NCBI RefSeq assembly: GCF_009914755.1
Contig: NC_060939.1
Length of the DNA: 64,000 bases
Origin: the human T2T-CHM13v2.0 reference genome, Homo sapiens
Reading direction: 5' to 3' (one strand)
Of the stretch, positions 5,816 through 57,616 are shown piece by piece (within the stretch, counting starts at the first letter, position 1; each line of letters starts with the position of its first letter). The notes below the pieces were generated by a model. It did not search any database. It was given only the letters and a program-made list of their open reading frames with translations, and was not told the origin of the DNA. A program made the position numbers and the translations under genes.

Positions 5816-8452
5816 GGCCCCAAAGGGCTCCAAATATCCACTTGCAGATTGTACAAAAAGAGTGTTTCAAAACTGCTCAATCAAAAGGAAGTTTCACCTT
5901 TGTGAGATGGATGCACACATCACAGTACAGTTTCTCAGAGTGATTCTGTCTAGCTTTTATACGAAGATATTTCCTTTTCCCCCATAGGCTGCAAAGCGCT
6001 CCAAATATCCATTTGCAGATTCCACAAGAAGTGTGCTTCAAAACTGCTCAATCAAAAGAAAGGCTCAACTCTGTGAGATGAACGCACGCATCACAAAGAA
6101 GCTACTCGGAATGCTTCTGTCGAGCTTTTATGTGATGATATTTCCTTTTCCACCATAGGCCCCAAACCACTCCAAATATCTGCTTGCAGATACTAAAAAA
6201 AGAGTGTTTCAAAACTTCTCAAACAAAAGCAAGGTTGAATTCTGTGAGATGAGCGTACACATCACAAAGAAGTTTCTGAGAATGCTTCTGTCTAGTTTTT
6301 ATGTGAAGGTATTTCCTTTTCCACCATTGGCCGCAAAGCACTCCAAATATACACTTGCAGATTCTACAAAAAGAGTGTTTCACAGCTGCTCAATCAAAAG
6401 AAAGGCTGAACTCTGTGAGATGAATGCACTTATCAGAAAGAAGTTTCTTAGAATGCTTCTGTCTCGTTTTTAAGTGAAGACATTTCCTTTTCCATCATAG
6501 GCCTCAAAGCGCTCCAAATATCCACTTCCAGATTCTACAAAAAGAGTGTTTCAAAACTGAACCATCAAAAGAAAGGTTTAACACTATGAGACGAATGCAC
6601 ACATCACAAAGCTGTATCTCAGAATGCTTCTGTCTAGTTTTTATGTGAAGATATTTCCTTTTCCACCATAGGACTCAAAGAACTCTAAATCTCCACTTGC
6701 AGATTCTACAGAGGGTTTCAAAACTGCTCAAGGAAAAGAAAGGTTCAACTCTGCGAGATGAATGGACACCTCACAGAGAAGTCTCTCAGAATTCTTCTGT
6801 GATGTTTTTATGTGAAGATAATGCTTTTCAACCATAGGCCTCAAAGCGCTCCATATATCCAATTGCAGATTCCACAAAAAGACTGTTTCAAAACTGTTCA
6901 ATTGAAAGAAAGGTTCAACTCTGTGAGATGAATGCACAAATCACAAAGAGGTTTCTCAGAATGTTTCTGCCTAGTTTTTGTGCGAAGATAATTCCTTTTC
7001 CCACATAGGCCGCAAAGTGCTCCAAATACACACTTGCAGATTCTACATAAAGAGTTTTTCAAAACTGCTCAATCAAAAGAAACTGCTCATTCAACTCTGT
7101 GAGATGAATGTATACATCACAAAGTAGTTTCTCAGAATGCTTCCGTTTTTGTGTGAAGATATTTCCCTTTTCACCATAGGCCACAAGGCGTCCCAAATAT
7201 CTACTGGCAGTTTCTACAAAGAGACTGTTTCAAAACTGCTCAATCAAAAGAAAGACTCAACTCTGTGAGATGCATGCACACATCACAAAGTAGTTTCTCA
7301 GAGTGCTTCTGTCTAGTTTTTATGTGAAGATATTTCCTTTTCCACCATAGGCCTCAAAGTGCTCCAAATATTCACTTGCAGATTCTACAAAAAGAGTGTT
7401 TCAAAACTGCTCAATAAAAAGACAGGTTCAACTCTGTGAGATGAATGCACACATCAAAAAGAAGTTTCCCAGAATACTTCTGTCTAGTTTTTATATGAAG
7501 GTATTGCCTTTTACACCATAGGCCGCAAATCATGCCAAATATCCACTTGCAGATTCTCCAAAAAGGTGTTTCTTAACTACTCAATTAAAACAAAGGTTCA
7601 ACTTTGTGTGATGGACGCATACATTACAAGGAAGTTTCACAGAATGCTTCTGCCTAGATTTTAGGTGAAGGTATTTCCTTTTCCACCATAGTCCTCAAAA
7701 ACCTTCAAATATCCACTTACACATTCTCCAAAAGAGGGTTTCCAAACTGCTCAGTCAAAAGATAGGTTAAACACTGTGAGATGAATGCACACATCACAAA
7801 GGAGTTTCTCAGAATGCTTCTGTCTACTTTTTATGTGAAGATATTTTCTTTTACACCATAGGCTGCAAATCGCTCCAAATATCCAATAGCAGACTCTAGA
7901 AAAGCAGAGTTGCAAACTGCTCAATCAAAAGAAAGTTTCACCTTTATGTGATGAATGCACACATCACAAAGAAGTTTCTCAGAATGCTTCTGTCTGGTTT
8001 TTATGGGAAGATATTGCCTTTTCCACCATAGACCACAAAGCGCTCCAAATATCCTCTTGCAGGTTCTACAAAGAGAGTGTTTCAAAACTGCTCCATCAAA
8101 AGAAATGTACAACTCTGTGAGATGAACGCACACATCACAAAGAAGCTTCTCAGAATGATCTGTCTAGATTTTATGTGAAGATATTTCCTTTTCCAGCAAG
8201 GGCCTCAAAGCGCTCCAAATATCCACTTGCAGATTATACAAAAAGAGTTTTTCAAAAATGTTCAATCAAAAGAAAGGTTCAACTCTGTGTGATGAATGCA
8301 CCCGTCACAAAGAAGTTTCTCAGAATGCTTCTGATTAGTTTTTATGTGAAGATATTTCCTTCTGCTCTATAGGATTCAAAGCGCTCCTAATATCCATTTT
8401 CAGATACTACCAAAAGACTGTCTCCACACTGCTCAATCAAAAGAATAGTTCA

Positions 8453-8760
8453 GGCCGGGCGCGGTGGTTCACGCCTGTAATCCCAGTGCTTTGGGAGGCC
8501 GAGGCGGGCGGATCACGAGTTCAGGAGATCGAGACCATCCCGGCTAAAACGGTGAAACCCCGTCTCTACTAAAAATACAAAAAATTAGCCGGGCGTAGTG
8601 GCGGGCGCCTGTAGTCCCAGCTAATTGGGAGGCTGAGGCAGGAGAATGACGTGAACCCGGGAGGCGGAGCTTGCAGTGAGCCGAGATCCCGGCCAACTGC
8701 GCTCCAGCCTGGGCGACAGAGCGAGACTCCGTCTCAAAAAAAAAAAAAAAAAAAAAAAAA
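8453..8760 (+). mobile_element. AluYa5, array copy 1 (A25 tail)
   Basis: Full-length dimeric Alu with Ya5 diagnostics CATCCCGGCTAAAACG, GGCGTAGTGGCG, TTGGGAGG, GATCCCG. TSD AAAAGAATAGTTCA (8439-8452) / AAAAGAGTAGTTCA (8762-8775). Confidence 0.95.
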
Positions 8761-11700
8761 GAAAAGAGTAGTTCAACTCTGTCAGTTGAATGCACACATC
8801 ACAAGGAAATTTCTAAGAATGCTTCTGTCTAGTTTTTATGTGAAGATATTTCCTTTTCCACCGTAGGCCTCAAAGCCCTCCAAGTATCCACTTGTAAATT
8901 CTACAAAAAGAGAGTTTCAATACTTCTCAATCAAAAGAAAAGTTCAACTCTGTGGGGTGAATGCACACATCAAAAAACAGCTTCTCAGAATGCCTCTGTC
9001 TAGTTTTTATATGAAGATATTTCCTGTTCCACCATAGGCCACAAAGCACTCCAAATATCCATTTTCAGATTCCACAAAAAGAGTGTTTCAAAACTGCCCA
9101 ATAAAAAAAAAAGTTCAACTCTGTGAGATGAAGGCACACCTCACAAAGAAGATTCTCAGAATGCTTCTGTGTAGTTTTTATGTGAAGATATTTCCTTTTC
9201 CACCATGGGCCCCAAAGGGCTCCAAATATCCACTTGCAGATTGTACAAAAAGAGTGTTTCAAAACTGCTCAATCAAAAGGAAGTTTCACCTTTGTGAGAT
9301 GGATGCACACATCACAGTACAGTTTCTCAGAGTGATTCTGTCTAGCTTTTATACGAAGATATTTCCTTTTCCCCCATAGGCTGCAAAGCGCTCCAAATAT
9401 CCATTTGCAGATTCCACAAGAAGTGTGCTTCAAAACTGCTCAATCAAAAGAAAGGCTCAACTCTGTGAGATGAACGCACGCATCACAAAGAAGCTACTCG
9501 GAATGCTTCTGTCGAGCTTTTATGTGATGATATTTCCTTTTCCACCATAGGCCCCAAACCACTCCAAATATCTGCTTGCAGATACTAAAAAAAGAGTGTT
9601 TCAAAACTTCTCAAACAAAAGCAAGGTTGAATTCTGTGAGATGAGCGTACACATCACAAAGAAGTTTCTGAGAATGCTTCTGTCTAGTTTTTATGTGAAG
9701 GTATTTCCTTTTCCACCATTGGCCGCAAAGCACTCCAAATATACACTTGCAGATTCTACAAAAAGAGTGTTTCACAGCTGCTCAATCAAAAGAAAGGCTG
9801 AACTCTGTGAGATGAATGCACTTATCAGAAAGAAGTTTCTTAGAATGCTTCTGTCTCGTTTTTAAGTGAAGACATTTCCTTTTCCATCATAGGCCTCAAA
9901 GCGCTCCAAATATCCACTTCCAGATTCTACAAAAAGAGTGTTTCAAAACTGAACCATCAAAAGAAAGGTTTAACACTATGAGACGAATGCACACATCACA
10001 AAGCTGTATCTCAGAATGCTTCTGTCTAGTTTTTATGTGAAGATATTTCCTTTTCCACCATAGGACTCAAAGAACTCTAAATCTCCACTTGCAGATTCTA
10101 CAGAGGGTTTCAAAACTGCTCAAGGAAAAGAAAGGTTCAACTCTGCGAGATGAATGGACACCTCACAGAGAAGTCTCTCAGAATTCTTCTGTGATGTTTT
10201 TATGTGAAGATAATGCTTTTCAACCATAGGCCTCAAAGCGCTCCATATATCCAATTGCAGATTCCACAAAAAGACTGTTTCAAAACTGTTCAATTGAAAG
10301 AAAGGTTCAACTCTGTGAGATGAATGCACAAATCACAAAGAGGTTTCTCAGAATGTTTCTGCCTAGTTTTTGTGCGAAGATAATTCCTTTTCCCACATAG
10401 GCCGCAAAGTGCTCCAAATACACACTTGCAGATTCTACATAAAGAGTTTTTCAAAACTGCTCAATCAAAAGAAACTGCTCATTCAACTCTGTGAGATGAA
10501 TGTATACATCACAAAGTAGTTTCTCAGAATGCTTCCGTTTTTGTGTGAAGATATTTCCCTTTTCACCATAGGCCACAAGGCGTCCCAAATATCTACTGGC
10601 AGTTTCTACAAAGAGACTGTTTCAAAACTGCTCAATCAAAAGAAAGACTCAACTCTGTGAGATGCATGCACACATCACAAAGTAGTTTCTCAGAGTGCTT
10701 CTGTCTAGTTTTTATGTGAAGATATTTCCTTTTCCACCATAGGCCTCAAAGTGCTCCAAATATTCACTTGCAGATTCTACAAAAAGAGTGTTTCAAAACT
10801 GCTCAATAAAAAGACAGGTTCAACTCTGTGAGATGAATGCACACATCAAAAAGAAGTTTCCCAGAATACTTCTGTCTAGTTTTTATATGAAGGTATTGCC
10901 TTTTACACCATAGGCCGCAAATCATGCCAAATATCCACTTGCAGATTCTCCAAAAAGGTGTTTCTTAACTACTCAATTAAAACAAAGGTTCAACTTTGTG
11001 TGATGGACGCATACATTACAAGGAAGTTTCACAGAATGCTTCTGCCTAGATTTTAGGTGAAGGTATTTCCTTTTCCACCATAGTCCTCAAAAACCTTCAA
11101 ATATCCACTTACACATTCTCCAAAAGAGGGTTTCCAAACTGCTCAGTCAAAAGATAGGTTAAACACTGTGAGATGAATGCACACATCACAAAGGAGTTTC
11201 TCAGAATGCTTCTGTCTACTTTTTATGTGAAGATATTTTCTTTTACACCATAGGCTGCAAATCGCTCCAAATATCCAATAGCAGACTCTAGAAAAGCAGA
11301 GTTGCAAACTGCTCAATCAAAAGAAAGTTTCACCTTTATGTGATGAATGCACACATCACAAAGAAGTTTCTCAGAATGCTTCTGTCTGGTTTTTATGGGA
11401 AGATATTGCCTTTTCCACCATAGACCACAAAGCGCTCCAAATATCCTCTTGCAGGTTCTACAAAGAGAGTGTTTCAAAACTGCTCCATCAAAAGAAATGT
11501 ACAACTCTGTGAGATGAACGCACACATCACAAAGAAGCTTCTCAGAATGATCTGTCTAGATTTTATGTGAAGATATTTCCTTTTCCAGCAAGGGCCTCAA
11601 AGCGCTCCAAATATCCACTTGCAGATTATACAAAAAGAGTTTTTCAAAAATGTTCAATCAAAAGAAAGGTTCAACTCTGTGTGATGAATGCACCCGTCAC

Positions 11701-11844
11701 AAAGAAGTTTCTCAGAATGCTTCTGATTAGTTTTTATGTGAAGATATTTCCTTCTGCTCTATAGGATTCAAAGCGCTCCTAATATCCATTTTCAGATACT
11801 ACCAAAAGACTGTCTCCACACTGCTCAATCAAAAGAATAGTTCA

Positions 11845-12166
<322 letters not shown>

Positions 12167-15100
12167 TCAACTCTGTCAGTTGAATGCACACATCACAAGG
12201 AAATTTCTAAGAATGCTTCTGTCTAGTTTTTATGTGAAGATATTTCCTTTTCCACCGTAGGCCTCAAAGCCCTCCAAGTATCCACTTGTAAATTCTACAA
12301 AAAGAGAGTTTCAATACTTCTCAATCAAAAGAAAAGTTCAACTCTGTGGGGTGAATGCACACATCAAAAAACAGCTTCTCAGAATGCCTCTGTCTAGTTT
12401 TTATATGAAGATATTTCCTGTTCCACCATAGGCCACAAAGCACTCCAAATATCCATTTTCAGATTCCACAAAAAGAGTGTTTCAAAACTGCCCAATAAAA
12501 AAAAAGTTCAACTCTGTGAGATGAACGCACACCTCACAAAGAAGATTCTCAGAATGCTTCTGTGTAGTTTTTATGTGAAGATATTTCCTTTTCCACCATG
12601 GGCCCCAAAGGGCTCCAAATATCCACTTGCAGATTGTACAAAAAGAGTGTTTCAAAACTGCTCAATCAAAAGGAAGTTTCACCTTTGTGAGATGGATGCA
12701 CACATCACAGTACAGTTTCTCAGAGTGATTCTGTCTAGCTTTTATACGAAGATATTTCCTTTTCCCCCATAGGCTGCAAAGCGCTCCAAATATCCATTTG
12801 CAGATTCCACAAGAAGTGTGCTTCAAAACTGCTCAATCAAAAGAAAGGCTCAACTCTGTGAGATGAACGCACGCATCACAAAGAAGCTACTCGGAATGCT
12901 TCTGTCGAGCTTTTATGTGATGATATTTCCTTTTCCACCATAGGCCCCAAACCACTCCAAATATCTGCTTGCAGATACTAAAAAAAGAGTGTTTCAAAAC
13001 TTCTCAAACAAAAGCAAGGTTGAATTCTGTGAGATGAGCGTACACATCACAAAGAAGTTTCTGAGAATGCTTCTGTCTAGTTTTTATGTGAAGGTATTTC
13101 CTTTTCCACCATTGGCCGCAAAGCACTCCAAATATACACTTGCAGATTCTACAAAAAGAGTGTTTCACAGCTGCTCAATCAAAAGAAAGGCTGAACTCTG
13201 TGAGATGAATGCACTTATCAGAAAGAAGTTTCTTAGAATGCTTCTGTCTCGTTTTTAAGTGAAGACATTTCCTTTTCCATCATAGGCCTCAAAGCGCTCC
13301 AAATATCCACTTCCAGATTCTACAAAAAGAGTGTTTCAAAACTGAACCATCAAAAGAAAGGTTTAACACTATGAGACGAATGCACACATCACAAAGCTGT
13401 ATCTCAGAATGCTTCTGTCTAGTTTTTATGTGAAGATATTTCCTTTTCCACCATAGGACTCAAAGAACTCTAAATCTCCACTTGCAGATTCTACAGAGGG
13501 TTTCAAAACTGCTCAAGGAAAAGAAAGGTTCAACTCTGCGAGATGAATGGACACCTCACAGAGAAGTCTCTCAGAATTCTTCTGTGATGTTTTTATGTGA
13601 AGATAATGTTTTTCAACCATAGGCCTCAAAGCGCTCCATATATCCAATTGCAGATTCCACAAAAAGACTGTTTCAAAACTGTTCAATTGAAAGAAAGGTT
13701 CAACTCTGTGAGATGAATGCACAAATCACAAAGAGGTTTCTCAGAATGTTTCTGCCTAGTTTTTGTGCGAAGATAATTCCTTTTCCCACATAGGCCGCAA
13801 AGTGCTCCAAATACACACTTGCAGATTCTACATAAAGAGTTTTTCAAAACTGCTCAATCAAAAGAAACTGCTCATTCAACTCTGTGAGATGAATGTATAC
13901 ATCACAAAGTAGTTTCTCAGAATGCTTCCGTTTTTGTGTGAAGATATTTCCCTTTTCACCATAGGCCACAAGGCGTCCCAAATATCTACTGGCAGTTTCT
14001 ACAAAGAGACTGTTTCAAAACTGCTCAATCAAAAGAAAGACTCAACTCTGTGAGATGCATGCACACATCACAAAGTAGTTTCTCAGAGTGCTTCTGTCTA
14101 GTTTTTATGTGAAGATATTTCCTTTTCCACCATAGGCCTCAAAGTGCTCCAAATATTCACTTGCAGATTCTACAAAAAGAGTGTTTCAAAACTGCTCAAT
14201 AAAAAGACAGGTTCAACTCTGTGAGATGAATGCACACATCAAAAAGAAGTTTCCCAGAATACTTCTGTCTAGTTTTTATATGAAGGTATTGCCTTTTACA
14301 CCATAGGCCGCAAATCATGCCAAATATCCACTTGCAGATTCTCCGAAAAGGTGTTTCTTAACTACTCAATTAAAACAAAGGTTCAACTTTGTGTGATGGA
14401 CGCATACATTACAAGGAAGTTTCACAGAATGCTTCTGCCTAGATTTTAGGTGAAGGTATTTCCTTTTCCACCATAGTCCTCAAAAACCTTCAAATATCCA
14501 CTTACACATTCTCCAAAAGAGGGTTTCCAAACTGCTCAGTCAAAAGATAGGTTAAACACTGTGAGATGAATGCACACATCACAAAGGAGTTTCTCAGAAT
14601 GCTTCTGTCTACTTTTTATGTGAAGATATTTTCTTTTACACCATAGGCTGCAAATCGCTCCAAATATCCAATAGCAGACTCTAGAAAAGCAGAGTTGCAA
14701 ACTGCTCAATCAAAAGAAAGTTTCACCTTTATGTGATGAATGCACACATCACAAAGAAGTTTCTCAGAATGCTTCTGTCTGGTTTTTATGGGAAGATATT
14801 GCCTTTTCCACCATAGACCACAAAGCGCTCCAAATATCCTCTTGCAGGTTCTACAAAGAGAGTGTTTCAAAACTGCTCCATCAAAAGAAATGTACAACTC
14901 TGTGAGATGAACGCACACATCACAAAGAAGCTTCTCAGAATGATCTGTCTAGATTTTATGTGAAGATATTTCCTTTTCCAGCAAGGGCCTCAAAGCGCTC
15001 CAAATATCCACTTGCAGATTATACAAAAAGAGTTTTTCAAAAATGTTCAATCAAAAGAAAGGTTCAACTCTGTGTGATGAATGCACCCGTCACAAAGAAG

Positions 15101-15237
15101 TTTCTCAGAATGCTTCTGATTAGTTTTTATGTGAAGATATTTCCTTCTGCTCTATAGGATTCAAAGCGCTCCTAATATCCATTTTCAGATACTACCAAAA
15201 GACTGTCTCCACACTGCTCAATCAAAAGAATAGTTCA

Positions 15238-15543
15238 GGCCGGGCGCGGTGGCTCACGCCTGTAATCCCAGCGCTCTGGGAGGCCGAGGCGGGCGGATCA
15301 CGAGTTCAGGAGATCGAGACCATCCCGGCTAAAACGGTGAAACCCCGTCTCTACTAAAAATACAAAAAATTAGCCGGGCGTAGTGGCGGGCGCCTGTAGT
15401 CCCAGCTACTTGGGAGGCTGAGGCAGGAGAATGACGTGAACCCGGGAGGCGGAGCTTGCAGTGAGCCGAGATCCCGGCCAACTGCGCTCCAGCCTGGGCG
15501 ACAGAGCGAGACTCCGTCTCAAAAAAAAAAAAAAAAAAAAAAA
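15238..15543 (+). mobile_element. AluYa5, array copy 3 (A23)
   Basis: Same sequence, flanks and TSD; private GCTCTGGG variant. Confidence 0.95.
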
Positions 15544-18500
15544 GAAAAGAGTAGTTCAACTCTGTCAGTTGAATGCACACATCACAAGGTCACAAGGAAA
15601 TTTCTAAGAATGCTTCTGTCTAGTTTTTATGTGAAGATATTTCCTTTTCCACCGTAGGCCTCAAAGCCCTCCAAGTATCCACTTGTAAATTCTACAAAAA
15701 GAGAGTTTCAATACTTCTCAATCAAAAGAAAAGTTCAACTCTGTGGGGTGAATGCACACATCAAAAAACAGCTTCTCAGAATGCCTCTGTCTAGTTTTTA
15801 TATGAAGATATTTCCTGTTCCACCATAGGCCACAAAGCACTCCAAATATCCATTTTCAGATTCCACAAAAAGAGTGTTTCAAAACTGCCCAATAAAAAAA
15901 AAGTTCAACTCTGTGAGATGAACGCACACCTCACAAAGAAGATTCTCAGAATGCTTCTGTGTAGTTTTTATGTGAAGATATTTCCTTTTCCACCATGGGC
16001 CCCAAAGGGCTCCAAATATCCACTTGCAGATTGTACAAAAAGAGTGTTTCAAAACTGCTCAATCAAAAGGAAGTTTCACCTTTGTGAGATGGATGCACAC
16101 ATCACAGTACAGTTTCTCAGAGTGATTCTGTCTAGCTTTTATACGAAGATATTTCCTTTTCCCCCATAGGCTGCAAAGCGCTCCAAATATCCATTTGCAG
16201 ATTCCACAAGAAGTGTGCTTCAAAACTGCTCAATCAAAAGAAAGGCTCAACTCTGTGAGATGAACGCACGCATCACAAAGAAGCTACTCGGAATGCTTCT
16301 GTCGAGCTTTTATGTGATGATATTTCCTTTTCCACCATAGGCCCCAAACCACTCCAAATATCTGCTTGCAGATACTAAAAAAAGAGTGTTTCAAAACTTC
16401 TCAAACAAAAGCAAGGTTGAATTCTGTGAGATGAGCGTACACATCACAAAGAAGTTTCTGAGAATGCTTCTGTCTAGTTTTTATGTGAAGGTATTTCCTT
16501 TTCCACCATTGGCCGCAAAGCACTCCAAATATACACTTGCAGATTCTACAAAAAGAGTGTTTCACAGCTGCTCAATCAAAAGAAAGGCTGAACTCTGTGA
16601 GATGAATGCACTTATCAGAAAGAAGTTTCTTAGAATGCTTCTGTCTCGTTTTTAAGTGAAGACATTTCCTTTTCCATCATAGGCCTCAAAGCGCTCCAAA
16701 TATCCACTTCCAGATTCTACAAAAAGAGTGTTTCAAAACTGAACCATCAAAAGAAAGGTTTAACACTATGAGACGAATGCACACATCACAAAGCTGTATC
16801 TCAGAATGCTTCTGTCTAGTTTTTATGTGAAGATATTTCCTTTTCCACCATAGGACTCAAAGAACTCTAAATCTCCACTTGCAGATTCTACAGAGGGTTT
16901 CAAAACTGCTCAAGGAAAAGAAAGGTTCAACTCTGCGAGATGAATGGACACCTCACAGAGAAGTCTCTCAGAATTCTTCTGTGATGTTTTTATGTGAAGA
17001 TAATGCTTTTCAACCATAGGCCTCAAAGCGCTCCATATATCCAATTGCAGATTCCACAAAAAGACTGTTTCAAAACTGTTCAATTGAAAGAAAGGTTCAA
17101 CTCTGTGAGATGAATGCACAAATCACAAAGAGGTTTCTCAGCATGTTTCTGCCTAGTTTTTGTGCGAAGATAATTCCTTTTCCCACATAGGCCGCAAAGT
17201 GCTCCAAATACACACTTGCAGATTCTACATAAAGAGTTTTTCAAAACTGCTCAATCAAAAGAAACTGCTCATTCAACTCTGTGAGATGAATGTATACATC
17301 ACAAAGTAGTTTCTCAGAATGCTTCCGTTTTTGTGTGAAGATATTTCCCTTTTCACCATAGGCCACAAGGCGTCCCAAATATCTACTGGCAGTTTCTACA
17401 AAGAGACTGTTTCAAAACTGCTCAATCAAAAGAAAGACTCAACTCTGTGAGATGCATGCACACATCACAAAGTAGTTTCTCAGAGTGCTTCTGTCTAGTT
17501 TTTATGTGAAGATATTTCCTTTTCCACCATAGGCCTCAAAGTGCTCCAAATATTCACTTGCAGATTCTACAAAAAGAGTGTTTCAAAACTGCTCAATAAA
17601 AAGACAGGTTCAACTCTGTGAGATGAATGCACACATCAAAAAGAAGTTTCCCAGAATACTTCTGTCTAGTTTTTATATGAAGGTATTGCCTTTTACACCA
17701 TAGGCCGCAAATCATGCCAAATATCCACTTGCAGATTCTCCAAAAAGGTGTTTCTTAACTACTCAATTAAAACAAAGGTTCAACTTTGTGTGATGGACGC
17801 ATACATTACAAGGAAGTTTCACAGAATGCTTCTGCCTAGATTTTAGGTGAAGGTATTTCCTTTTCCACCATAGTCCTCAAAAACCTTCAAATATCCACTT
17901 ACACATTCTCCAAAAGAGGGTTTCCAAACTGCTCAGTCAAAAGATAGGTTAAACACTGTGAGATGAATGCACACATCACAAAGGAGTTTCTCAGAATGCT
18001 TCTGTCTACTTTTTATGTGAAGATATTTTCTTTTACACCATAGGCTGCAAATCGCTCCAAATATCCAATAGCAGACTCTAGAAAAGCAGAGTTGCAAACT
18101 GCTCAATCAAAAGAAAGTTTCACCTTTATGTGATGAATGCACACATCACAAAGAAGTTTCTCAGAATGCTTCTGTCTGGTTTTTATGGGAAGATATTGCC
18201 TTTTCCACCATAGACCACAAAGCGCTCCAAATATCCTCTTGCAGGTTCTACAAAGAGAGTGTTTCAAAACTGCTCCATCAAAAGAAATGTACAACTCTGT
18301 GAGATGAACGCACACATCACAAAGAAGCTTCTCAGAATGATCTGTCTAGATTTTATGTGAAGATATTTCCTTTTCCAGCAAGGGCCTCAAAGCGCTCCAA
18401 ATATCCACTTGCAGATTATACAAAAAGAGTTTTTCAAAAATGTTCAATCAAAAGAAAGGTTCAACTCTGTGTGATGAATGCACCCGTCACAAAGAAGTTT

Positions 18501-18634
18501 CTCAGAATGCTTCTGATTAGTTTTTATGTGAAGATATTTCCTTCTGCTCTATAGGATTCAAAGCGCTCCTAATATCCATTTTCAGATACTACCAAAAGAC
18601 TGTCTCCACACTGCTCAATCAAAAGAATAGTTCA

Positions 18635-18953
<319 letters not shown>

Positions 18954-21900
18954 TCAACTCTGTCAGTTGAATGCACACATCACAAGGAAATTTCTAAGAA
19001 TGCTTCTGTCTAGTTTTTATGTGAAGATATTTCCTTTTCCACCGTAGGCCTCAAAGCCCTCCAAGTATCCACTTGTAAATTCTACAAAAAGAGAGTTTCA
19101 ATACTTCTCAATCAAAAGAAAAGTTCAACTCTGTGGGGTGAATGCACACATCAAAAAACAGCTTCTCAGAATGCCTCTGTCTAGTTTTTATATGAAGATA
19201 TTTCCTGTTCCACCATAGGCCACAAAGCACTCCAAATATCCATTTTCAGATTCCACAAAAAGAGTGTTTCAAAACTGCCCAATAAAAAAAAAGTTCAACT
19301 CTGTGAGATGAAGGCACACCTCACAAAGAAGATTCTCAGAATGCTTCTGTGTAGTTTTTATGTGAAGATATTTCCTTTTCCACCATGGGCCCCAAAGGGC
19401 TCCAAATATCCACTTGCAGATTGTACAAAAAGAGTGTTTCAAAACTGCTCAATCAAAAGGAAGTTTCACCTTTGTGAGATGGATGCACACATCACAGTAC
19501 AGTTTCTCAGAGTGATTCTGTCTAGCTTTTATACGAAGATATTTCCTTTTCCCCCATAGGCTGCAAAGCGCTCCAAATATCCATTTGCAGATTCCACAAG
19601 AAGTGTGCTTCAAAACTGCTCAATCAAAAGAAAGGCTCAACTCTGTGAGATGAACGCACGCATCACAAAGAAGCTACTCGGAATGCTTCTGTCGAGCTTT
19701 TATGTGATGATATTTCCTTTTCCACCATAGGCCCCAAACCACTCCAAATATCTGCTTGCAGATACTAAAAAAAGAGTGTTTCAAAACTTCTCAAACAAAA
19801 GCAAGGTTGAATTCTGTGAGATGAGCGTACACATCACAAAGAAGTTTCTGAGAATGCTTCTGTCTAGTTTTTATGTGAAGGTATTTCCTTTTCCACCATT
19901 GGCCGCAAAGCACTCCAAATATACACTTGCAGATTCTACAAAAAGAGTGTTTCACAGCTGCTCAATCAAAAGAAAGGCTGAACTCTGTGAGATGAATGCA
20001 CTTATCAGAAAGAAGTTTCTTAGAATGCTTCTGTCTCGTTTTTAAGTGAAGACATTTCCTTTTCCATCATAGGCCTCAAAGCGCTCCAAATATCCACTTC
20101 CAGATTCTACAAAAAGAGTGTTTCAAAACTGAACCATCAAAAGAAAGGTTTAACACTATGAGACGAATGCACACATCACAAAGCTGTATCTCAGAATGCT
20201 TCTGTCTAGTTTTTATGTGAAGATATTTCCTTTTCCACCATAGGACTCAAAGAACTCTAAATCTCCACTTGCAGATTCTACAGAGGGTTTCAAAACTGCT
20301 CAAGGAAAAGAAAGGTTCAACTCTGCGAGATGAATGGACACCTCACAGAGAAGTCTCTCAGAATTCTTCTGTGATGTTTTTATGTGAAGATAATGCTTTT
20401 CAACCATAGGCCTCAAAGCGCTCCATATATCCAATTGCAGATTCCACAAAAAGACTGTTTCAAAACTGTTCAATTGAAAGAAAGGTTCAACTCTGTGAGA
20501 TGAATGCACAAATCACAAAGAGGTTTCTCAGAATGTTTCTGCCTAGTTTTTGTGCGAAGATAATTCCTTTTCCCACATAGGCCGCAAAGTGCTCCAAATA
20601 CACACTTGCAGATTCTACATAAAGAGTTTTTCAAAACTGCTCAATCAAAAGAAACTGCTCATTCAACTCTGTGAGATGAATGTATACATCACAAAGTAGT
20701 TTCTCAGAATGCTTCCGTTTTTGTGTGAAGATATTTCCCTTTTCACCATAGGCCACAAGGCGTCCCAAATATCTACTGGCAGTTTCTACAAAGAGACTGT
20801 TTCAAAACTGCTCAATCAAAAGAAAGACTCAACTCTGTGAGATGCATGCACACATCACAAAGTAGTTTCTCAGAGTGCTTCTGTCTAGTTTTTATGTGAA
20901 GATATTTCCTTTTCCACCATAGGCCTCAAAGTGCTCCAAATATTCACTTGCAGATTCTACAAAAAGAGTGTTTCAAAACTGCTCAATAAAAAGACAGGTT
21001 CAACTCTGTGAGATGAATGCACACATCAAAAAGAAGTTTCCCAGAATACTTCTGTCTAGTTTTTATATGAAGGTATTGCCTTTTACACCATAGGCCGCAA
21101 ATCATGCCAAATATCCACTTGCAGATTCTCCAAAAAGGTGTTTCTTAACTACTCAATTAAAACAAAGGTTCAACTTTGTGTGATGGACGCATACATTACA
21201 AGGAAGTTTCACAGAATGCTTCTGCCTAGATTTTAGGTGAAGGTATTTCCTTTTCCACCATAGTCCTCAAAAACCTTCAAATATCCACTTACACATTCTC
21301 CAAAAGAGGGTTTCCAAACTGCTCAGTCAAAAGATAGGTTAAACACTGTGAGATGAATGCACACATCACAAAGGAGTTTCTCAGAATGCTTCTGTCTACT
21401 TTTTATGTGAAGATATTTTCTTTTACACCATAGGCTGCAAATCGCTCCAAATATCCAATAGCAGACTCTAGAAAAGCAGAGTTGCAAACTGCTCAATCAA
21501 AAGAAAGTTTCACCTTTATGTGATGAATGCACACATCACAAAGAAGTTTCTCAGAATGCTTCTGTCTGGTTTTTATGGGAAGATATTGCCTTTTCCACCA
21601 TAGACCACAAAGCGCTCCAAATATCCTCTTGCAGGTTCTACAAAGAGAGTGTTTCAAAACTGCTCCATCAAAAGAAATGTACAACTCTGTGAGATGAACG
21701 CACACATCACAAAGAAGCTTCTCAGAATGATCTGTCTAGATTTTATGTGAAGATATTTCCTTTTCCAGCAAGGGCCTCAAAGCGCTCCAAATATCCACTT
21801 GCAGATTATACAAAAAGAGTTTTTCAAAAATGTTCAATCAAAAGAAAGGTTCAACTCTGTGTGATGAATGCACCCGTCACAAAGAAGTTTCTCAGAATGC

Positions 21901-22024
21901 TTCTGATTAGTTTTTATGTGAAGATATTTCCTTCTGCTCTATAGGATTCAAAGCGCTCCTAATATCCATTTTCAGATACTACCAAAAGACTGTCTCCACA
22001 CTGCTCAATCAAAAGAATAGTTCA

Positions 22025-22343
<319 letters not shown>

Positions 22344-25300
22344 TCAACTCTGTCAGTTGAATGCACACATCACAAGGAAATTTCTAAGAATGCTTCTGTC
22401 TAGTTTTTATGTGAAGATATTTCCTTTTCCACCGTAGGCCTCAAAGCCCTCCAAGTATCCACTTGTAAATTCTACAAAAAGAGAGTTTCAATACTTCTCA
22501 ATCAAAAGAAAAGTTCAACTCTGTGGGGTGAATGCACACATCAAAAAACAGCTTCTCAGAATGCCTCTGTCTAGTTTTTATATGAAGATATTTCCTGTTC
22601 CACCATAGGCCACAAAGCACTCCAAATATCCATTTTCAGATTCCACAAAAAGAGTGTTTCAAAACTGCCCAATAAAAAAAAAGTTCAACTCTGTGAGATG
22701 AACGCACACCTCACAAAGAAGATTCTCAGAATGCTTCTGTGTAGTTTTTATGTGAAGATATTTCCTTTTCCACCATGGGCCCCAAAGGGCTCCAAATATC
22801 CACTTGCAGATTGTACAAAAAGAGTGTTTCAAAACTGCTCAATCAAAAGGAAGTTTCACCTTTGTGAGATGGATGCACACATCACAGTACAGTTTCTCAG
22901 AGTGATTCTGTCTAGCTTTTATACGAAGATATTTCCTTTTCCCCCATAGGCTGCAAAGCGCTCCAAATATCCATTTGCAGATTCCACAAGAAGTGTGCTT
23001 CAAAACTGCTCAATCAAAAGAAAGGCTCAACTCTGTGAGATGAACGCACGCATCACAAAGAAGCTACTCGGAATGCTTCTGTCGAGCTTTTATGTGATGA
23101 TATTTCCTTTTCCACCATAGGCCCCAAACCACTCCAAATATCTGCTTGCAGATACTAAAAAAAGAGTGTTTCAAAACTTCTCAAACAAAAGCAAGGTTGA
23201 ATTCTGTGAGATGAGCGTACACATCACAAAGAAGTTTCTGAGAATGCTTCTGTCTAGTTTTTATGTGAAGGTATTTCCTTTTCCACCATTGGCCGCAAAG
23301 CACTCCAAATATACACTTGCAGATTCTACAAAAAGAGTGTTTCACAGCTGCTCAATCAAAAGAAAGGCTGAACTCTGTGAGATGAATGCACTTATCAGAA
23401 AGAAGTTTCTTAGAATGCTTCTGTCTCGTTTTTAAGTGAAGACATTTCCTTTTCCATCATAGGCCTCAAAGCGCTCCAAATATCCACTTCCAGATTCTAC
23501 AAAAAGAGTGTTTCAAAACTGAACCATCAAAAGAAAGGTTTAACACTATGAGACGAATGCACACATCACAAAGCTGTATCTCAGAATGCTTCTGTCTAGT
23601 TTTTATGTGAAGATATTTCCTTTTCCACCATAGGACTCAAAGAACTCTAAATCTCCACTTGCAGATTCTACAGAGGGTTTCAAAACTGCTCAAGGAAAAG
23701 AAAGGTTCAACTCTGCGAGATGAATGGACACCTCACAGAGAAGTCTCTCAGAATTCTTCTGTGATGTTTTTATGTGAAGATAATGCTTTTCAACCATAGG
23801 CCTCAAAGCGCTCCATATATCCAATTGCAGATTCCACAAAAAGACTGTTTCAAAACTGTTCAATTGAAAGAAAGGTTCAACTCTGTGAGATGAATGCACA
23901 AATCACAAAGAGGTTTCTCAGCATGTTTCTGCCTAGTTTTTGTGCGAAGATAATTCCTTTTCCCACATAGGCCGCAAAGTGCTCCAAATACACACTTGCA
24001 GATTCTACATAAAGAGTTTTTCAAAACTGCTCAATCAAAAGAAACTGCTCATTCAACTCTGTGAGATGAATGTATACATCACAAAGTAGTTTCTCAGAAT
24101 GCTTCCGTTTTTGTGTGAAGATATTTCCCTTTTCACCATAGGCCACAAGGCGTCCCAAATATCTACTGGCAGTTTCTACAAAGAGACTGTTTCAAAACTG
24201 CTCAATCAAAAGAAAGACTCAACTCTGTGAGATGCATGCACACATCACAAAGTAGTTTCTCAGAGTGCTTCTGTCTAGTTTTTATGTGAAGATATTTCCT
24301 TTTCCACCATAGGCCTCAAAGTGCTCCAAATATTCACTTGCAGATTCTACAAAAAGAGTGTTTCAAAACTGCTCAATAAAAAGACAGGTTCAACTCTGTG
24401 AGATGAATGCACACATCAAAAAGAAGTTTCCCAGAATACTTCTGTCTAGTTTTTATATGAAGGTATTGCCTTTTACACCATAGGCCGCAAATCATGCCAA
24501 ATATCCACTTGCAGATTCTCCAAAAAGGTGTTTCTTAACTACTCAATTAAAACAAAGGTTCAACTTTGTGTGATGGACGCATACATTACAAGGAAGTTTC
24601 ACAGAATGCTTCTGCCTAGATTTTAGGTGAAGGTATTTCCTTTTCCACCATAGTCCTCAAAAACCTTCAAATATCCACTTACACATTCTCCAAAAGAGGG
24701 TTTCCAAACTGCTCAGTCAAAAGATAGGTTAAACACTGTGAGATGAATGCACACATCACAAAGGAGTTTCTCAGAATGCTTCTGTCTACTTTTTATGTGA
24801 AGATATTTTCTTTTACACCATAGGCTGCAAATCGCTCCAAATATCCAATAGCAGACTCTAGAAAAGCAGAGTTGCAAACTGCTCAATCAAAAGAAAGTTT
24901 CACCTTTATGTGATGAATGCACACATCACAAAGAAGTTTCTCAGAATGCTTCTGTCTGGTTTTTATGGGAAGATATTGCCTTTTCCACCATAGACCACAA
25001 AGCGCTCCAAATATCCTCTTGCAGGTTCTACAAAGAGAGTGTTTCAAAACTGCTCCATCAAAAGAAATGTACAACTCTGTGAGATGAACGCACACATCAC
25101 AAAGAAGCTTCTCAGAATGATCTGTCTAGATTTTATGTGAAGATATTTCCTTTTCCAGCAAGGGCCTCAAAGCGCTCCAAATATCCACTTGCAGATTATA
25201 CAAAAAGAGTTTTTCAAAAATGTTCAATCAAAAGAAAGGTTCAACTCTGTGTGATGAATGCACCCGTCACAAAGAAGTTTCTCAGAATGCTTCTGATTAG

Positions 25301-25414
25301 TTTTTATGTGAAGATATTTCCTTCTGCTCTATAGGATTCAAAGCGCTCCTAATATCCATTTTCAGATACTACCAAAAGACTGTCTCCACACTGCTCAATC
25401 AAAAGAATAGTTCA

Positions 25415-25736
<322 letters not shown>

Positions 25737-28700
25737 TCAACTCTGTCAGTTGAATGCACACATCACAAGGAAATTTCTAAGAATGCTTCTGTCTAGTTTT
25801 TATGTGAAGATATTTCCTTTTCCACCGTAGGCCTCAAAGCCCTCCAAGTATCCACTTGTAAATTCTACAAAAAGAGAGTTTCAATACTTCTCAATCAAAA
25901 GAAAAGTTCAACTCTGTGGGGTGAATGCACACATCAAAAAACAGCTTCTCAGAATGCCTCTGTCTAGTTTTTATATGAAGATATTTCCTGTTCCACCATA
26001 GGCCACAAAGCACTCCAAATATCCATTTTCAGATTCCACAAAAAGAGTGTTTCAAAACTGCCCAATAAAAAAAAAGTTCAACTCTGTGAGATGAACGCAC
26101 ACCTCACAAAGAAGATTCTCAGAATGCTTCTGTGTAGTTTTTATGTGAAGATATTTCCTTTTCCACCATGGGCCCCAAAGGGCTCCAAATATCCACTTGC
26201 AGATTGTACAAAAAGAGTGTTTCAAAACTGCTCAATCAAAAGGAAGTTTCACCTTTGTGAGATGGATGCACACATCACAGTACAGTTTCTCAGAGTGATT
26301 CTGTCTAGCTTTTATACGAAGATATTTCCTTTTCCCCCATAGGCTGCAAAGCGCTCCAAATATCCATTTGCAGATTCCACAAGAAGTGTGCTTCAAAACT
26401 GCTCAATCAAAAGAAAGGCTCAACTCTGTGAGATGAACGCACGCATCACAAAGAAGCTACTCGGAATGCTTCTGTCGAGCTTTTATGTGATGATATTTCC
26501 TTTTCCACCATAGGCCCCAAACCACTCCAAATATCTGCTTGCAGATACTAAAAAAAGAGTGTTTCAAAACTTCTCAAACAAAAGCAAGGTTGAATTCTGT
26601 GAGATGAGCGTACACATCACAAAGAAGTTTCTGAGAATGCTTCTGTCTAGTTTTTATGTGAAGGTATTTCCTTTTCCACCATTGGCCGCAAAGCACTCCA
26701 AATATACACTTGCAGATTCTACAAAAAGAGTGTTTCACAGCTGCTCAATCAAAAGAAAGGCTGAACTCTGTGAGATGAATGCACTTATCAGAAAGAAGTT
26801 TCTTAGAATGCTTCTGTCTCGTTTTTAAGTGAAGACATTTCCTTTTCCATCATAGGCCTCAAAGCGCTCCAAATATCCACTTCCAGATTCTACAAAAAGA
26901 GTGTTTCAAAACTGAACCATCAAAAGAAAGGTTTAACACTATGAGACGAATGCACACATCACAAAGCTGTATCTCAGAATGCTTCTGTCTAGTTTTTATG
27001 TGAAGATATTTCCTTTTCCACCATAGGACTCAAAGAACTCTAAATCTCCACTTGCAGATTCTACAGAGGGTTTCAAAACTGCTCAAGGAAAAGAAAGGTT
27101 CAACTCTGCGAGATGAATGGACACCTCACAGAGAAGTCTCTCAGAATTCTTCTGTGATGTTTTTATGTGAAGATAATGCTTTTCAACCATAGGCCTCAAA
27201 GCGCTCCATATATCCAATTGCAGATTCCACAAAAAGACTGTTTCAAAACTGTTCAATTGAAAGAAAGGTTCAACTCTGTGAGATGAATGCACAAATCACA
27301 AAGAGGTTTCTCAGAATGTTTCTGCCTAGTTTTTGTGCGAAGATAATTCCTTTTCCCACATAGGCCGCAAAGTGCTCCAAATACACACTTGCAGATTCTA
27401 CATAAAGAGTTTTTCAAAACTGCTCAATCAAAAGAAACTGCTCATTCAACTCTGTGAGATGAATGTATACATCACAAAGTAGTTTCTCAGAATGCTTCCG
27501 TTTTTGTGTGAAGATATTTCCCTTTTCACCATAGGCCACAAGGCGTCCCAAATATCTACTGGCAGTTTCTACAAAGAGACTGTTTCAAAACTGCTCAATC
27601 AAAAGAAAGACTCAACTCTGTGAGATGCATGCACACATCACAAAGTAGTTTCTCAGAGTGCTTCTGTCTAGTTTTTATGTGAAGATATTTCCTTTTCCAC
27701 CATAGGCCTCAAAGTGCTCCAAATATTCACTTGCAGATTCTACAAAAAGAGTGTTTCAAAACTGCTCAATAAAAAGACAGGTTCAACTCTGTGAGATGAA
27801 TGCACACATCAAAAAGAAGTTTCCCAGAATACTTCTGTCTAGTTTTTATATGAAGGTATTGCCTTTTACACCATAGGCCGCAAATCATGCCAAATATCCA
27901 CTTGCAGATTCTCCGAAAAGGTGTTTCTTAACTACTCAATTAAAACAAAGGTTCAACTTTGTGTGATGGACGCATACATTACAAGGAAGTTTCACAGAAT
28001 GCTTCTGCCTAGATTTTAGGTGAAGGTATTTCCTTTTCCACCATAGTCCTCAAAAACCTTCAAATATCCACTTACACATTCTCCAAAAGAGGGTTTCCAA
28101 ACTGCTCAGTCAAAAGATAGGTTAAACACTGTGAGATGAATGCACACATCACAAAGGAGTTTCTCAGAATGCTTCTGTCTACTTTTTATGTGAAGATATT
28201 TTCTTTTACACCATAGGCTGCAAATCGCTCCAAATATCCAATAGCAGACTCTAGAAAAGCAGAGTTGCAAACTGCTCAATCAAAAGAAAGTTTCACCTTT
28301 ATGTGATGAATGCACACATCACAAAGAAGTTTCTCAGAATGCTTCTGTCTGGTTTTTATGGGAAGATATTGCCTTTTCCACCATAGACCACAAAGCGCTC
28401 CAAATATCCTCTTGCAGGTTCTACAAAGAGAGTGTTTCAAAACTGCTCCATCAAAAGAAATGTACAACTCTGTGAGATGAACGCACACATCACAAAGAAG
28501 CTTCTCAGAATGATCTGTCTAGATTTTATGTGAAGATATTTCCTTTTCCAGCAAGGGCCTCAAAGCGCTCCAAATATCCACTTGCAGATTATACAAAAAG
28601 AGTTTTTCAAAAATGTTCAATCAAAAGAAAGGTTCAACTCTGTGTGATGAATGCACCCGTCACAAAGAAGTTTCTCAGAATGCTTCTGATTAGTTTTTAT

Positions 28701-28807
28701 GTGAAGATATTTCCTTCTGCTCTATAGGATTCAAAGCGCTCCTAATATCCATTTTCAGATACTACCAAAAGACTGTCTCCACACTGCTCAATCAAAAGAA
28801 TAGTTCA

Positions 28808-29118
28808 GGCCGGGCGCGGTGGTTCACGCCTGTAATCCCAGCGCTTTGGGAGGCCGAGGCGGGCGGATCACGAGTTCAGGAGATCGAGACCATCCCGGCT
28901 AAAACGGTGAAACCCCGTCTCTACTAAAAATACAAAAAATTAGCCGGGCGTAGTGGCGGGCGCCTGTAGTCCCAGCTACTTGGGAGGCTGAGGCAGGAGA
29001 ATGACGTGAACCCGGGAGGCGGAGCTTGCAGTGAGCCGAGATCCCGGCCAACTGCGCTCCAGCCTGGGCGACAGAGCGAGACTCCGTCTCAAAAAAAAAA
29101 AAAAAAAAAAAAAAAAAA
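28808..29118 (+). mobile_element. AluYa5, array copy 7 (A28)
   Basis: Same sequence, flanks and TSD. Confidence 0.95.
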
Positions 29119-32100
29119 GAAAAGAGTAGTTCAACTCTGTCAGTTGAATGCACACATCACAAGGAAATTTCTAAGAATGCTTCTGTCTAGTTTTTATGTG
29201 AAGATATTTCCTTTTCCACCGTAGGCCTCAAAGCCCTCCAAGTATCCACTTGTAAATTCTACAAAAAGAGAGTTTCAATACTTCTCAATCAAAAGAAAAG
29301 TTCAACTCTGTGGGGTGAATGCACACATCAAAAAACAGCTTCTCAGAATGCCTCTGTCTAGTTTTTATATGAAGATATTTCCTGTTCCACCATAGGCCAC
29401 AAAGCACTCCAAATATCCATTTTCAGATTCCACAAAAAGAGTGTTTCAAAACTGCCCAATAAAAAAAAAGTTCAACTCTGTGAGATGAACGCACACCTCA
29501 CAAAGAAGATTCTCAGAATGCTTCTGTGTAGTTTTTATGTGAAGATATTTCCTTTTCCACCATGGGCCCCAAAGGGCTCCAAATATCCACTTGCAGATTG
29601 TACAAAAAGAGTGTTTCAAAACTGCTCAATCAAAAGGAAGTTTCACCTTTGTGAGATGGATGCACACATCACAGTACAGTTTCTCAGAGTGATTCTGTCT
29701 AGCTTTTATACGAAGATATTTCCTTTTCCCCCATAGGCTGCAAAGCGCTCCAAATATCCATTTGCAGATTCCACAAGAAGTGTGCTTCAAAACTGCTCAA
29801 TCAAAAGAAAGGCTCAACTCTGTGAGATGAACGCACGCATCACAAAGAAGCTACTCGGAATGCTTCTGTCGAGCTTTTATGTGATGATATTTCCTTTTCC
29901 ACCATAGGCCCCAAACCACTCCAAATATCTGCTTGCAGATACTAAAAAAAGAGTGTTTCAAAACTTCTCAAACAAAAGCAAGGTTGAATTCTGTGAGATG
30001 AGCGTACACATCACAAAGAAGTTTCTGAGAATGCTTCTGTCTAGTTTTTATGTGAAGGTATTTCCTTTTCCACCATTGGCCGCAAAGCACTCCAAATATA
30101 CACTTGCAGATTCTACAAAAAGAGTGTTTCACAGCTGCTCAATCAAAAGAAAGGCTGAACTCTGTGAGATGAATGCACTTATCAGAAAGAAGTTTCTTAG
30201 AATGCTTCTGTCTCGTTTTTAAGTGAAGACATTTCCTTTTCCATCATAGGCCTCAAAGCGCTCCAAATATCCACTTCCAGATTCTACAAAAAGAGTGTTT
30301 CAAAACTGAACCATCAAAAGAAAGGTTTAACACTATGAGACGAATGCACACATCACAAAGCTGTATCTCAGAATGCTTCTGTCTAGTTTTTATGTGAAGA
30401 TATTTCCTTTTCCACCATAGGACTCAAAGAACTCTAAATCTCCACTTGCAGATTCTACAGAGGGTTTCAAAACTGCTCAAGGAAAAGAAAGGTTCAACTC
30501 TGCGAGATGAATGGACACCTCACAGAGAAGTCTCTCAGAATTCTTCTGTGATGTTTTTATGTGAAGATAATGCTTTTCAACCATAGGCCTCAAAGCGCTC
30601 CATATATCCAATTGCAGATTCCACAAAAAGACTGTTTCAAAACTGTTCAATTGAAAGAAAGGTTCAACTCTGTGAGATGAATGCACAAATCACAAAGAGG
30701 TTTCTCAGAATGTTTCTGCCTAGTTTTTGTGCGAAGATAATTCCTTTTCCCACATAGGCCGCAAAGTGCTCCAAATACACACTTGCAGATTCTACATAAA
30801 GAGTTTTTCAAAACTGCTCAATCAAAAGAAACTGCTCATTCAACTCTGTGAGATGAATGTATACATCACAAAGTAGTTTCTCAGAATGCTTCCGTTTTTG
30901 TGTGAAGATATTTCCCTTTTCACCATAGGCCACAAGGCGTCCCAAATATCTACTGGCAGTTTCTACAAAGAGACTGTTTCAAAACTGCTCAATCAAAAGA
31001 AAGACTCAACTCTGTGAGATGCATGCACACATCACAAAGTAGTTTCTCAGAGTGCTTCTGTCTAGTTTTTATGTGAAGATATTTCCTTTTCCACCATAGG
31101 CCTCAAAGTGCTCCAAATATTCACTTGCAGATTCTACAAAAAGAGTGTTTCAAAACTGCTCAATAAAAAGACAGGTTCAACTCTGTGAGATGAATGCACA
31201 CATCAAAAAGAAGTTTCCCAGAATACTTCTGTCTAGTTTTTATATGAAGGTATTGCCTTTTACACCATAGGCCGCAAATCATGCCAAATATCCACTTGCA
31301 GATTCTCCGAAAAGGTGTTTCTTAACTACTCAATTAAAACAAAGGTTCAACTTTGTGTGATGGACGCATACATTACAAGGAAGTTTCACAGAATGCTTCT
31401 GCCTAGATTTTAGGTGAAGGTATTTCCTTTTCCACCATAGTCCTCAAAAACCTTCAAATATCCACTTACACATTCTCCAAAAGAGGGTTTCCAAACTGCT
31501 CAGTCAAAAGATAGGTTAAACACTGTGAGATGAATGCACACATCACAAAGGAGTTTCTCAGAATGCTTCTGTCTACTTTTTATGTGAAGATATTTTCTTT
31601 TACACCATAGGCTGCAAATCGCTCCAAATATCCAATAGCAGACTCTAGAAAAGCAGAGTTGCAAACTGCTCAATCAAAAGAAAGTTTCACCTTTATGTGA
31701 TGAATGCACACATCACAAAGAAGTTTCTCAGAATGCTTCTGTCTGGTTTTTATGGGAAGATATTGCCTTTTCCACCATAGACCACAAAGCGCTCCAAATA
31801 TCCTCTTGCAGGTTCTACAAAGAGAGTGTTTCAAAACTGCTCCATCAAAAGAAATGTACAACTCTGTGAGATGAACGCACACATCACAAAGAAGCTTCTC
31901 AGAATGATCTGTCTAGATTTTATGTGAAGATATTTCCTTTTCCAGCAAGGGCCTCAAAGCGCTCCAAATATCCACTTGCAGATTATACAAAAAGAGTTTT
32001 TCAAAAATGTTCAATCAAAAGAAAGGTTCAACTCTGTGTGATGAATGCACCCGTCACAAAGAAGTTTCTCAGAATGCTTCTGATTAGTTTTTATGTGAAG

Positions 32101-32201
32101 ATATTTCCTTCTGCTCTATAGGATTCAAAGCGCTCCTAATATCCATTTTCAGATACTACCAAAAGACTGTCTCCACACTGCTCAATCAAAAGAATAGTTC
32201 A

Positions 32202-32547
<346 letters not shown>

Positions 32548-35500: not shown

Positions 35501-35592
35501 TCTGCTCTATAGGATTCAAAGCGCTCCTAATATCCATTTTCAGATACTACCAAAAGACTGTCTCCACACTGCTCAATCAAAAGAATAGTTCA

Positions 35593-35914
<322 letters not shown>

Positions 35915-38900: not shown

Positions 38901-38985
38901 TATAGGATTCAAAGCGCTCCTAATATCCATTTTCAGATACTACCAAAAGACTGTCTCCACACTGCTCAATCAAAAGAATAGTTCA

Positions 38986-43227: not shown

Positions 43228-43639
<412 letters not shown>

Positions 43640-48591: not shown

Positions 48592-52414
<3,823 letters not shown>

Positions 52415-52477
52415 TATGATGTTAGCTGGTTATTTTGCTCGTTAGTTGATGCAGTTTCTTCCTAGTCTCGATGGTGT

Positions 52478-57534: not shown

Positions 57535-57616
57535 CCCTTCCATTCCATTCCATTCCATTCCATTCCATTCCATTCCACTCCATTCCATTCCATTCCACTC
57601 CATTCCATTCCATTCC

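What the first reader, a model, noticed from the sequence alone, without database searches (positions are those of the whole stretch)
5816..5840. Founding duplication crossover is readable: 25-bp perfect homology shared by both array ends
Seen: the left flank monomer reads CCATA-GGCCCCAAAGGGCTCCAAATATCCA-CTTGCAGATTGTAC and the right flank (43977-44001) reads CCATG-[same 25 bp]-AAGCAGATTCTAC. Every internal junction (e.g. 9208) is the hybrid CCATG-[25 bp]-CTTGCAGATTGTAC. Inference: the unit arose by unequal exchange or template switching between two monomers 18 apart, within this tract and ~430 bp from the Alu, so it was alpha-alpha rather than Alu-Alu recombination.
Basis: partly seen in the sequence, partly recalled or inferred. 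Interest (0 to 1): 0.72.

Follow-up and report, generated by a model that had tools for sequence, protein, structure and literature searches.

The report
Birth seam of a satellite repeat
A 3.4-kb block of centromere-type satellite DNA with an Alu inside is repeated about eleven times on human chromosome 15, and its seam is a clean hybrid of two similar satellite units, likely made by one ordinary mis-paired copying event; the 25 matching bases at the seam are commonplace.

Summary
The 25-mer occurs at 5816, at ten internal junctions and at 43977, and the junction monomer switches once from right-type to left-type (46 of 47 informative sites). An unexpanded paralog on chr20 and a sister monomer at 45507 show that both parental arrangements are ancestral, so the internal monomer is the hybrid and the exchange was alpha-alpha, not Alu-Alu. 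Two corrections. (1) 25 bp is not special: the same two monomers share an unused 36-bp run 11 bp away, and 800 of 3915 local pairs have a run of 25 or more. (2) The right 'end' is not the array's own end. It is a 9-monomer copy 1.8-2.0% diverged from the 0.1%-diverged array, attached by a second, younger seam at 42093-42119, so it only stands in for the true partner. The array is published (18mer HOR, PMC11050224); I found no description of its Alu or seams. Likeliest mechanism (inferred): a homeology-guided template switch between two of the most similar nearby monomers. Ordinary in kind, unusually legible. Modest extra: 6 of 7 resolvable seams here fall in 20-27-bp perfect runs (p about 0.03).

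The parts
5816..5840 (+). 25-bp tract in the left parental monomer (a); left edge of the array
   Evidence: halves of a are joined in the chr20 paralog
9208..9232 (+). First of ten internal hybrid junctions (z 5' part, tract, a 3' part); seam J1
5816..39739 (+). Ten full units of 18 alpha monomers plus one Alu, 3390-3397 bp, 0-7 substitutions between units
   Evidence: published as 18mer HOR hor1 (PMC11050224)
39740..42092 (+). Eleventh, truncated unit (monomers 1-14), array-type sequence
   Evidence: 2-4 substitutions in 2381 bp; the paper's 14mer variant
42093..42119 (+). Second seam J2: 27-bp identical interval joining array monomer 14 to monomer 10 of the diverged copy
   Evidence: (0 misfits of 41 sites, 1 uninformative)
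42120..43976 (+). Older 9-monomer copy (monomers 10-18 with the same Alu), 1.8-2.0% diverged from every array unit
   Evidence: 24 of 1568 outside the Alu, 10 of 282 inside; the paper's 9mer variant
43977..44001 (+). 25-bp tract in the right monomer (z), on the older copy
8453..8761 (+). Alu carried in each unit (11 copies), with 14-bp target-site copies at 8439-8452 and 8762-8775 (one mismatch)
   Evidence: family name recalled from the sequence, not from a library call
5852..5887 (+). 36-bp perfect match between a and z (44012-44047) that the founding exchange did not use
45507..45676 (+). Sister monomer of z (93.6% identical), outgroup for the right parent

Best explanation
The internal junction monomer is a hybrid of two alpha-satellite monomers 18 units apart, and it likely arose in one homeology-guided exchange, most likely a replication template switch 3.4 kb backwards, that resolved inside the 25-bp interval. 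Shown: single switch, interval, register, parental arrangements in outgroups. Inferred order: (1) the Alu inserts into monomeric alpha satellite; (2) an old duplication or paralog split makes two copies of at least monomers 10-18 plus z, now 1.5% apart outside the Alu; (3) much later, in one copy, a pairs with z, one of its most similar neighbours, and seam J1 creates the 18-monomer unit; (4) in-register exchange multiplies it to about eleven units, now 0.1% apart; (5) a second out-of-register exchange (J2) joins unit 11 to the older copy and removes the true right parent. The Alu is a passenger. The 25 bp is only the interval within which the switch cannot be placed more finely.
For: Single switch at 46 of 47 sites. 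The chr20 paralog is colinear with the left flank and monomers 1-14 (3.7-5.7% diverged), single-copy, without the hybrid or the Alu. Monomer 45507 carries z's 5' features and its 3' variant, found at 2 exact places in the genome. a and z are 90.6% identical, 99.6th percentile of 3915 pairs; without the tract 89.0%, 96.7th percentile of 2775 pairs; z ranks 3rd of 40 downstream monomers for a and tied 3rd for a's chr20 ortholog. J1 is young: unit 1 has no private base before 8487, whereas an old duplicate should differ about every 60 bp. J2 is younger than the array: its left side carries an array-derived base and a variant shared with unit 10. Template switch favoured because the match is far shorter than classical NAHR is thought to need and single-strand annealing gives losses, not gains (PMC6071635 passages; the gain argument is general knowledge).
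Against: No scar separates template switching from a homeologous unequal crossover. The true right parent is gone, so its tract is inferred from a copy 1.5-2% away. The longer 36-bp match was not used. The two non-consensus bases of the tract each trace to a different outgroup, which a later-conversion model predicts. No unexpanded allele or ape ortholog could be examined. The old duplication (step 2) has no surviving seam.
Confidence: 0.7

Rival explanations
1. J1 is old: the founding duplication is the event that split array-type from tail-type sequence, the tail is the remnant of the original second unit, and the array was homogenised later right up to its left edge. This is closest to the first reader's picture.
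For: Needs no separate earlier duplication; the tail ends exactly at z; the two lineages carry equal numbers of derived changes against chr20 (7 and 7 in 854 columns).
Against: Unit 1 shows no diverged 5' segment, while the tail stays diverged over 1.87 kb up to 12 bp from the tract. Homogenisation would have to be complete at one edge and absent at the other.
Confidence: 0.18
2. The 25-bp identity is partly secondary: the real switch lay in the 5 bp between tract positions 5 and 11, and later gene conversion copied the hybrid tract into both end monomers.
For: Position 5 is shared by z and its sister 45507 but not by a's chr20 ortholog; position 11 is shared by a and its chr20 ortholog but not by 45507. 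Units show mosaic sharing of variants, so exchange continues.
Against: Both sites are highly variable here (the tract bases occur in 12 of 89 and 9 of 89 monomers); the chr20 copy has a cluster of private changes right there; two short conversions would each have to stop within a few bases of retained private variants; selection of a seam for identity already enriches shared bases.
Confidence: 0.12
3. The internal monomer is the original one and the unit was inserted as a circle or with a 25-bp target-site duplication, so that the two ends are the hybrids.
For: A direct repeat at both ends is what such an insertion leaves.
Against: chr20 has the left flank running straight into monomers 1-14; 45507 has z's two halves together.
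Confidence: 0.02
4. Alu-Alu recombination made the unit.
For: Each unit holds an Alu. Later multiplying exchanges could have fallen inside it unseen.
Against: One insertion site only (11 of 11 genome matches to the Alu's left junction are in this array); target-site copies on both sides; neither end of the array nor either seam is in an Alu.
Confidence: 0.01

Closest known systems
18mer Willard-type HOR array hor1 of T2T-CHM13 chr15, 14,699,937-14,737,927 (PMC11050224; passages seen)
   Same: It is this array: 10 canonical copies plus 14mer and 9mer variants, matching.
   Different: The main text has 0 occurrences of 'Alu', 'junction', 'SINE' or 'transpos' and the passages do not say that the 9mer is an older diverged copy. 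Its supplements were not read.
Hybrid monomers at HOR structural-variant junctions (10.1101/2021.07.12.452052; passages seen)
   Same: A join between two different monomers in register gives an a/b hybrid.
   Different: There described for variants of existing HORs; here the hybrid is the seam that defines the unit and both parents' contexts survive.
Low-copy SF4+/SF5 HORs ('pseudocentromeres') in dead alpha layers (PMC4496801; passages seen)
   Same: Small, recent, about 99% homogeneous amplification in divergent monomeric alpha, on the chr15 short arm; no CENP-B box motif.
   Different: Suprachromosomal class was not tested here; this unit carries an Alu.
Alu/Alu-mediated rearrangements with chimeric junctions (PMC6071635; passages seen)
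   Same: Works like them: in-register exchange between diverged repeats, one chimeric product, short perfect match (most under 25 bp, all under 50 bp there).
   Different: The substrates are alpha monomers, not Alus, and the product is a gain that went on to multiply.
Clustering of crossovers in D17Z1 variants (Warburton, Waye and Willard 1993; title seen in reference lists, content recalled, paper not held)
   Same: Short-interval exchanges between monomers read from hybrid units.
   Different: Positional clustering of the 7 seams here is not significant (p 0.12-0.17).

Membership tests
Alpha-satellite higher-order repeat (Willard type) | Unit is a whole number of distinct 171-bp monomers, each present once | tested here: met
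   18 monomers per unit; local monomers average 81% identical
Alpha-satellite higher-order repeat (Willard type) | Tandem units far more alike than monomers within a unit | tested here: met
   0-7 substitutions in about 3390 bp, 45 pairs
Hybrid-monomer junction | One switch from one parent to the other, in monomer register | tested here: met
   46 of 47 informative sites
Hybrid-monomer junction | Parental arrangements exist outside the product | tested here: met
   chr20 paralog for a, monomer 45507 for z; the true right parent survives only as a diverged copy
Active centromeric HOR | CENP-B boxes | tested here: not met
   0 matches to the core motif in 64 kb (motif recalled)
Active centromeric HOR | CENP-A binding | not testable with these tools
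   no chromatin data
Alu/Alu-mediated rearrangement | Chimeric Alu at the junction, an Alu at each end | tested here: not met
Classical NAHR between long repeats | Long uninterrupted identity (longer than an Alu, as PMC6071635 states) at the exchange | tested here: not met
   longest perfect run between a and z is 36 bp
Insertion with target-site duplication | Insert foreign to the left flank; empty site joins the two flanks | tested here: not met
   chr20 continues from the left flank into the unit's own monomers
SF4+ (old monomeric layer) HOR | Monomer class by PERCON or HumAS-HMMER | not testable with these tools
   no such classifier held

The most novel reading that the evidence does not exclude
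Small young arrays like this one, with intact flanks and an unexpanded paralog, are natural records of how higher-order repeats are born, and they show a rule: a monomer pairs with one of its few most similar neighbours and the exchange resolves in a perfect run of about 20-27 bp. Here z ranks 3rd of 40 partners and 6 of 7 resolvable seams lie in 20-27-bp runs (p about 0.03). If it holds genome-wide, HOR unit lengths become predictable from the monomer similarity map of the old layer.
Probability: 0.3. Interest if true: 0.55.

Novelty: new member of a known kind. Interest (0 to 1): 0.27.

Why it matters
How a higher-order repeat first forms from monomeric alpha satellite is usually hidden, because large arrays lose their original flanks. 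Here the founding seam, both parental contexts and an unexpanded paralog can be read base by base, so the locus is a clean worked example and a template for a genome-wide survey. The mechanism class, the hybrid monomer and the array itself are known, and no function is implied.

Tried and rejected
Unusual length of the 25-bp match: rejected. Positional hotspot of seams in the monomer: 6 of 7 midpoints span 59 bp, p 0.12 against a uniform null and 0.17 against a conservation-weighted null; not supported. Paralog of the right flank or of the Alu-bearing segment elsewhere in CHM13: none found (best other hit 87%, only 15 of 10547 candidates scored, 11 of 11 hits in the array), so z has no true ortholog here. 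Two of nine candidate seams (Jb, J7) were dropped as unresolved (7 and 13 misfits, tied switch points). Target-site-duplication and Alu-Alu readings: rejected (see rivals). Literature searches that returned nothing on this seam: 0 papers each; unrelated papers; listings only; the 2026 pangenome centromere preprint has 0 occurrences of 'chr15' or 'chromosome 15' in its main text. Warburton 1993 could not be read, and passages of four citing papers did not restate its result.

Full report
Observation. The 25-mer is exact at 12 places on the plus strand: the left edge (5816), ten internal junctions and 43977. The first ten spacings are 3390-3397 bp, the last 4237 bp. Each unit is 18 alpha monomers and one Alu. 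Across about 365 bp the junction monomer follows the right monomer (z) before the tract and the left monomer (a) after it at 46 of 47 informative sites. The misfit is a base private to the right copy; it allows a tied zero-length switch point, which I reject because chr20, monomer 45507 and all internal copies lack that base.

Which monomer is the hybrid? A genome search with the left edge found one true paralog, on chr20 at 30.89 Mb, minus strand, 94% identical. It is colinear with the left flank (187 differences in 4216 bp) and monomers 1-14, single-copy, and has no Alu. It carries a's 5' and 3' halves together. chr20 lacks z, but monomer 45507 is 93.6% identical to z and shares both its 5' features and the unusual bases after the tract, which match exactly at only these 2 places in the genome. 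So both parental arrangements are ancestral and the internal monomer is the derived one. This rules out an insertion with a target-site duplication. The Alu has 14-bp target-site copies, one insertion site (11 of 11 matches in this array) and ends 433 bp before the tract: a passenger.

Is 25 bp special? No. a and z share a 36-bp perfect run starting 11 bp after the tract, and the exchange did not use it. Of 3915 local monomer pairs (one near-duplicate pair dropped), 800 have a run of 25 or more; of 557 pairs 85-92% identical, 315 do. Identity over these exact columns is rarer (11 of 3916), but any seam must lie in some identical interval. The 25-mer occurs 25 more times in the genome. What does stand out is the partner: a and z are 90.6% identical (99.6th percentile), 89.0% without the tract (96.7th percentile of 2775 pairs), and z ranks 3rd of 40 downstream monomers.

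The ten units differ by 0-7 substitutions (mean 3.6 over 45 pairs, my sum; 0.11%). The last 1.87 kb before 43977 differs from each by 34-38 (1.8-2.0%): 24 of 1568 outside the Alu, 10 of 282 inside. It begins at a second seam, 42093-42119, which joins array monomer 14 to monomer 10 of this older copy in a 27-bp identical interval with no misfit. The left side of that seam carries an array-derived base and a variant shared with unit 10, so it postdates the array. Unit 1 has no private base before 8487, so the left edge shows no old layer. I infer that the founding seam is young, that its true right parent was lost at the second seam, and that z at 43977 is a stand-in about 15 times more diverged than the units are from each other. 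At ordinary rates (recalled) that is roughly the human-chimpanzee level for the old copy and about a million years or less for the array; rates in this region may be higher.

A wrinkle. The tract has two non-consensus bases. Position 5 is shared by z and 45507 but not by a's chr20 ortholog; position 11 is shared by a and that ortholog but not by 45507. This fits a switch between them followed by conversion of both ends, but the sites are variable (12 of 89 and 9 of 89 monomers carry these bases) and the chr20 copy has clustered private changes there. I give it 0.12.

Other seams. Comparing chr15 and chr20 I picked nine monomer-register seams by eye; two were unresolved and dropped. The other seven have intervals of 25, 27, 25, 8, 23, 22 and 20 bp. 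Against a uniform break within each pair, Fisher's combined p is 0.033, or 0.039 without the founding seam. Caveats: the parents are proxies 4-5% diverged, one seam has 9 misfits in 50 sites, and two ties were broken towards the longer interval. Clustering by position in the monomer is not significant (p 0.12 and 0.17).

Mechanism. Shown: one in-register switch in a 25-bp interval between monomers about 86-90% alike. Inferred: a homeology-guided template switch. PMC6071635 (passages) states that NAHR is thought to need more than an Alu's length of homology, that most Alu-Alu junction matches are under 25 bp, and that replication-based routes were preferred below 150 bp in yeast. Single-strand annealing gives losses, not gains (general knowledge). 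A homeologous unequal crossover leaves the same sequence and cannot be excluded.

What is known. The array is published as the 18mer HOR hor1, ten canonical copies plus 14mer and 9mer variants (PMC11050224, passages); its main text has no 'Alu' or 'junction', and its supplements were not read and may bear on this. Hybrid monomers are described in 10.1101/2021.07.12.452052 (passages), small recent HORs in dead layers in PMC4496801 (passages). Warburton 1993 is recalled only. Searches and the passages found no description of these seams; most subscription journals are not in the library. No CENP-B box motif is in the window (motif recalled).

Verdict. Real, correctly read as an alpha-alpha hybrid, overstated in the weight given to 25 bp and simplified at the right end. 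New member of a known kind; interest 0.27.

Noticed in passing
window 1-8361 and 46354-50945 against G000:C20:30,881,299-30,908,517 (minus strand): A segmental duplication shared by the chr15 short arm and the chr20 pericentromere, about 4-6% diverged, reaching at least 10 kb upstream of the window, with several whole-monomer gains and losses (1, 6, 16 and 20 monomers) between the copies.
   Followed up: partly
window 48369-54401: An L1 of about 6 kb on the minus strand interrupts the alpha satellite (family recalled from the sequence); the chr20 paralog has it at the same site, about 94% identical over 47839-50945, so it predates the duplication.
   Followed up: no
window 43870-44170 and 45400-45700: z and monomer 45507, nine monomers apart, are 93.6% alike over only about 300 bp while their neighbours are not: a short old conversion tract or the remnant of an older duplication.
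   Followed up: partly
window 15555-15998 region (unit 3): Unit 3 has a private 8-bp insertion just after the Alu.
   Followed up: no
window 7560, 8468, 9133 and equivalents: Variants shared by non-adjacent units in conflicting patterns point to continuing exchange among units; unit 8 shares one Alu base with the older copy.
   Followed up: no
window 4043-4280: A 123-bp out-of-register duplication in the left flank, also present in the chr20 paralog.
   Followed up: no
window 56841-64000: Alpha satellite ends abruptly in a CCATT satellite array with Alu-like fragments near 57000 and 57555-57886.
   Followed up: no
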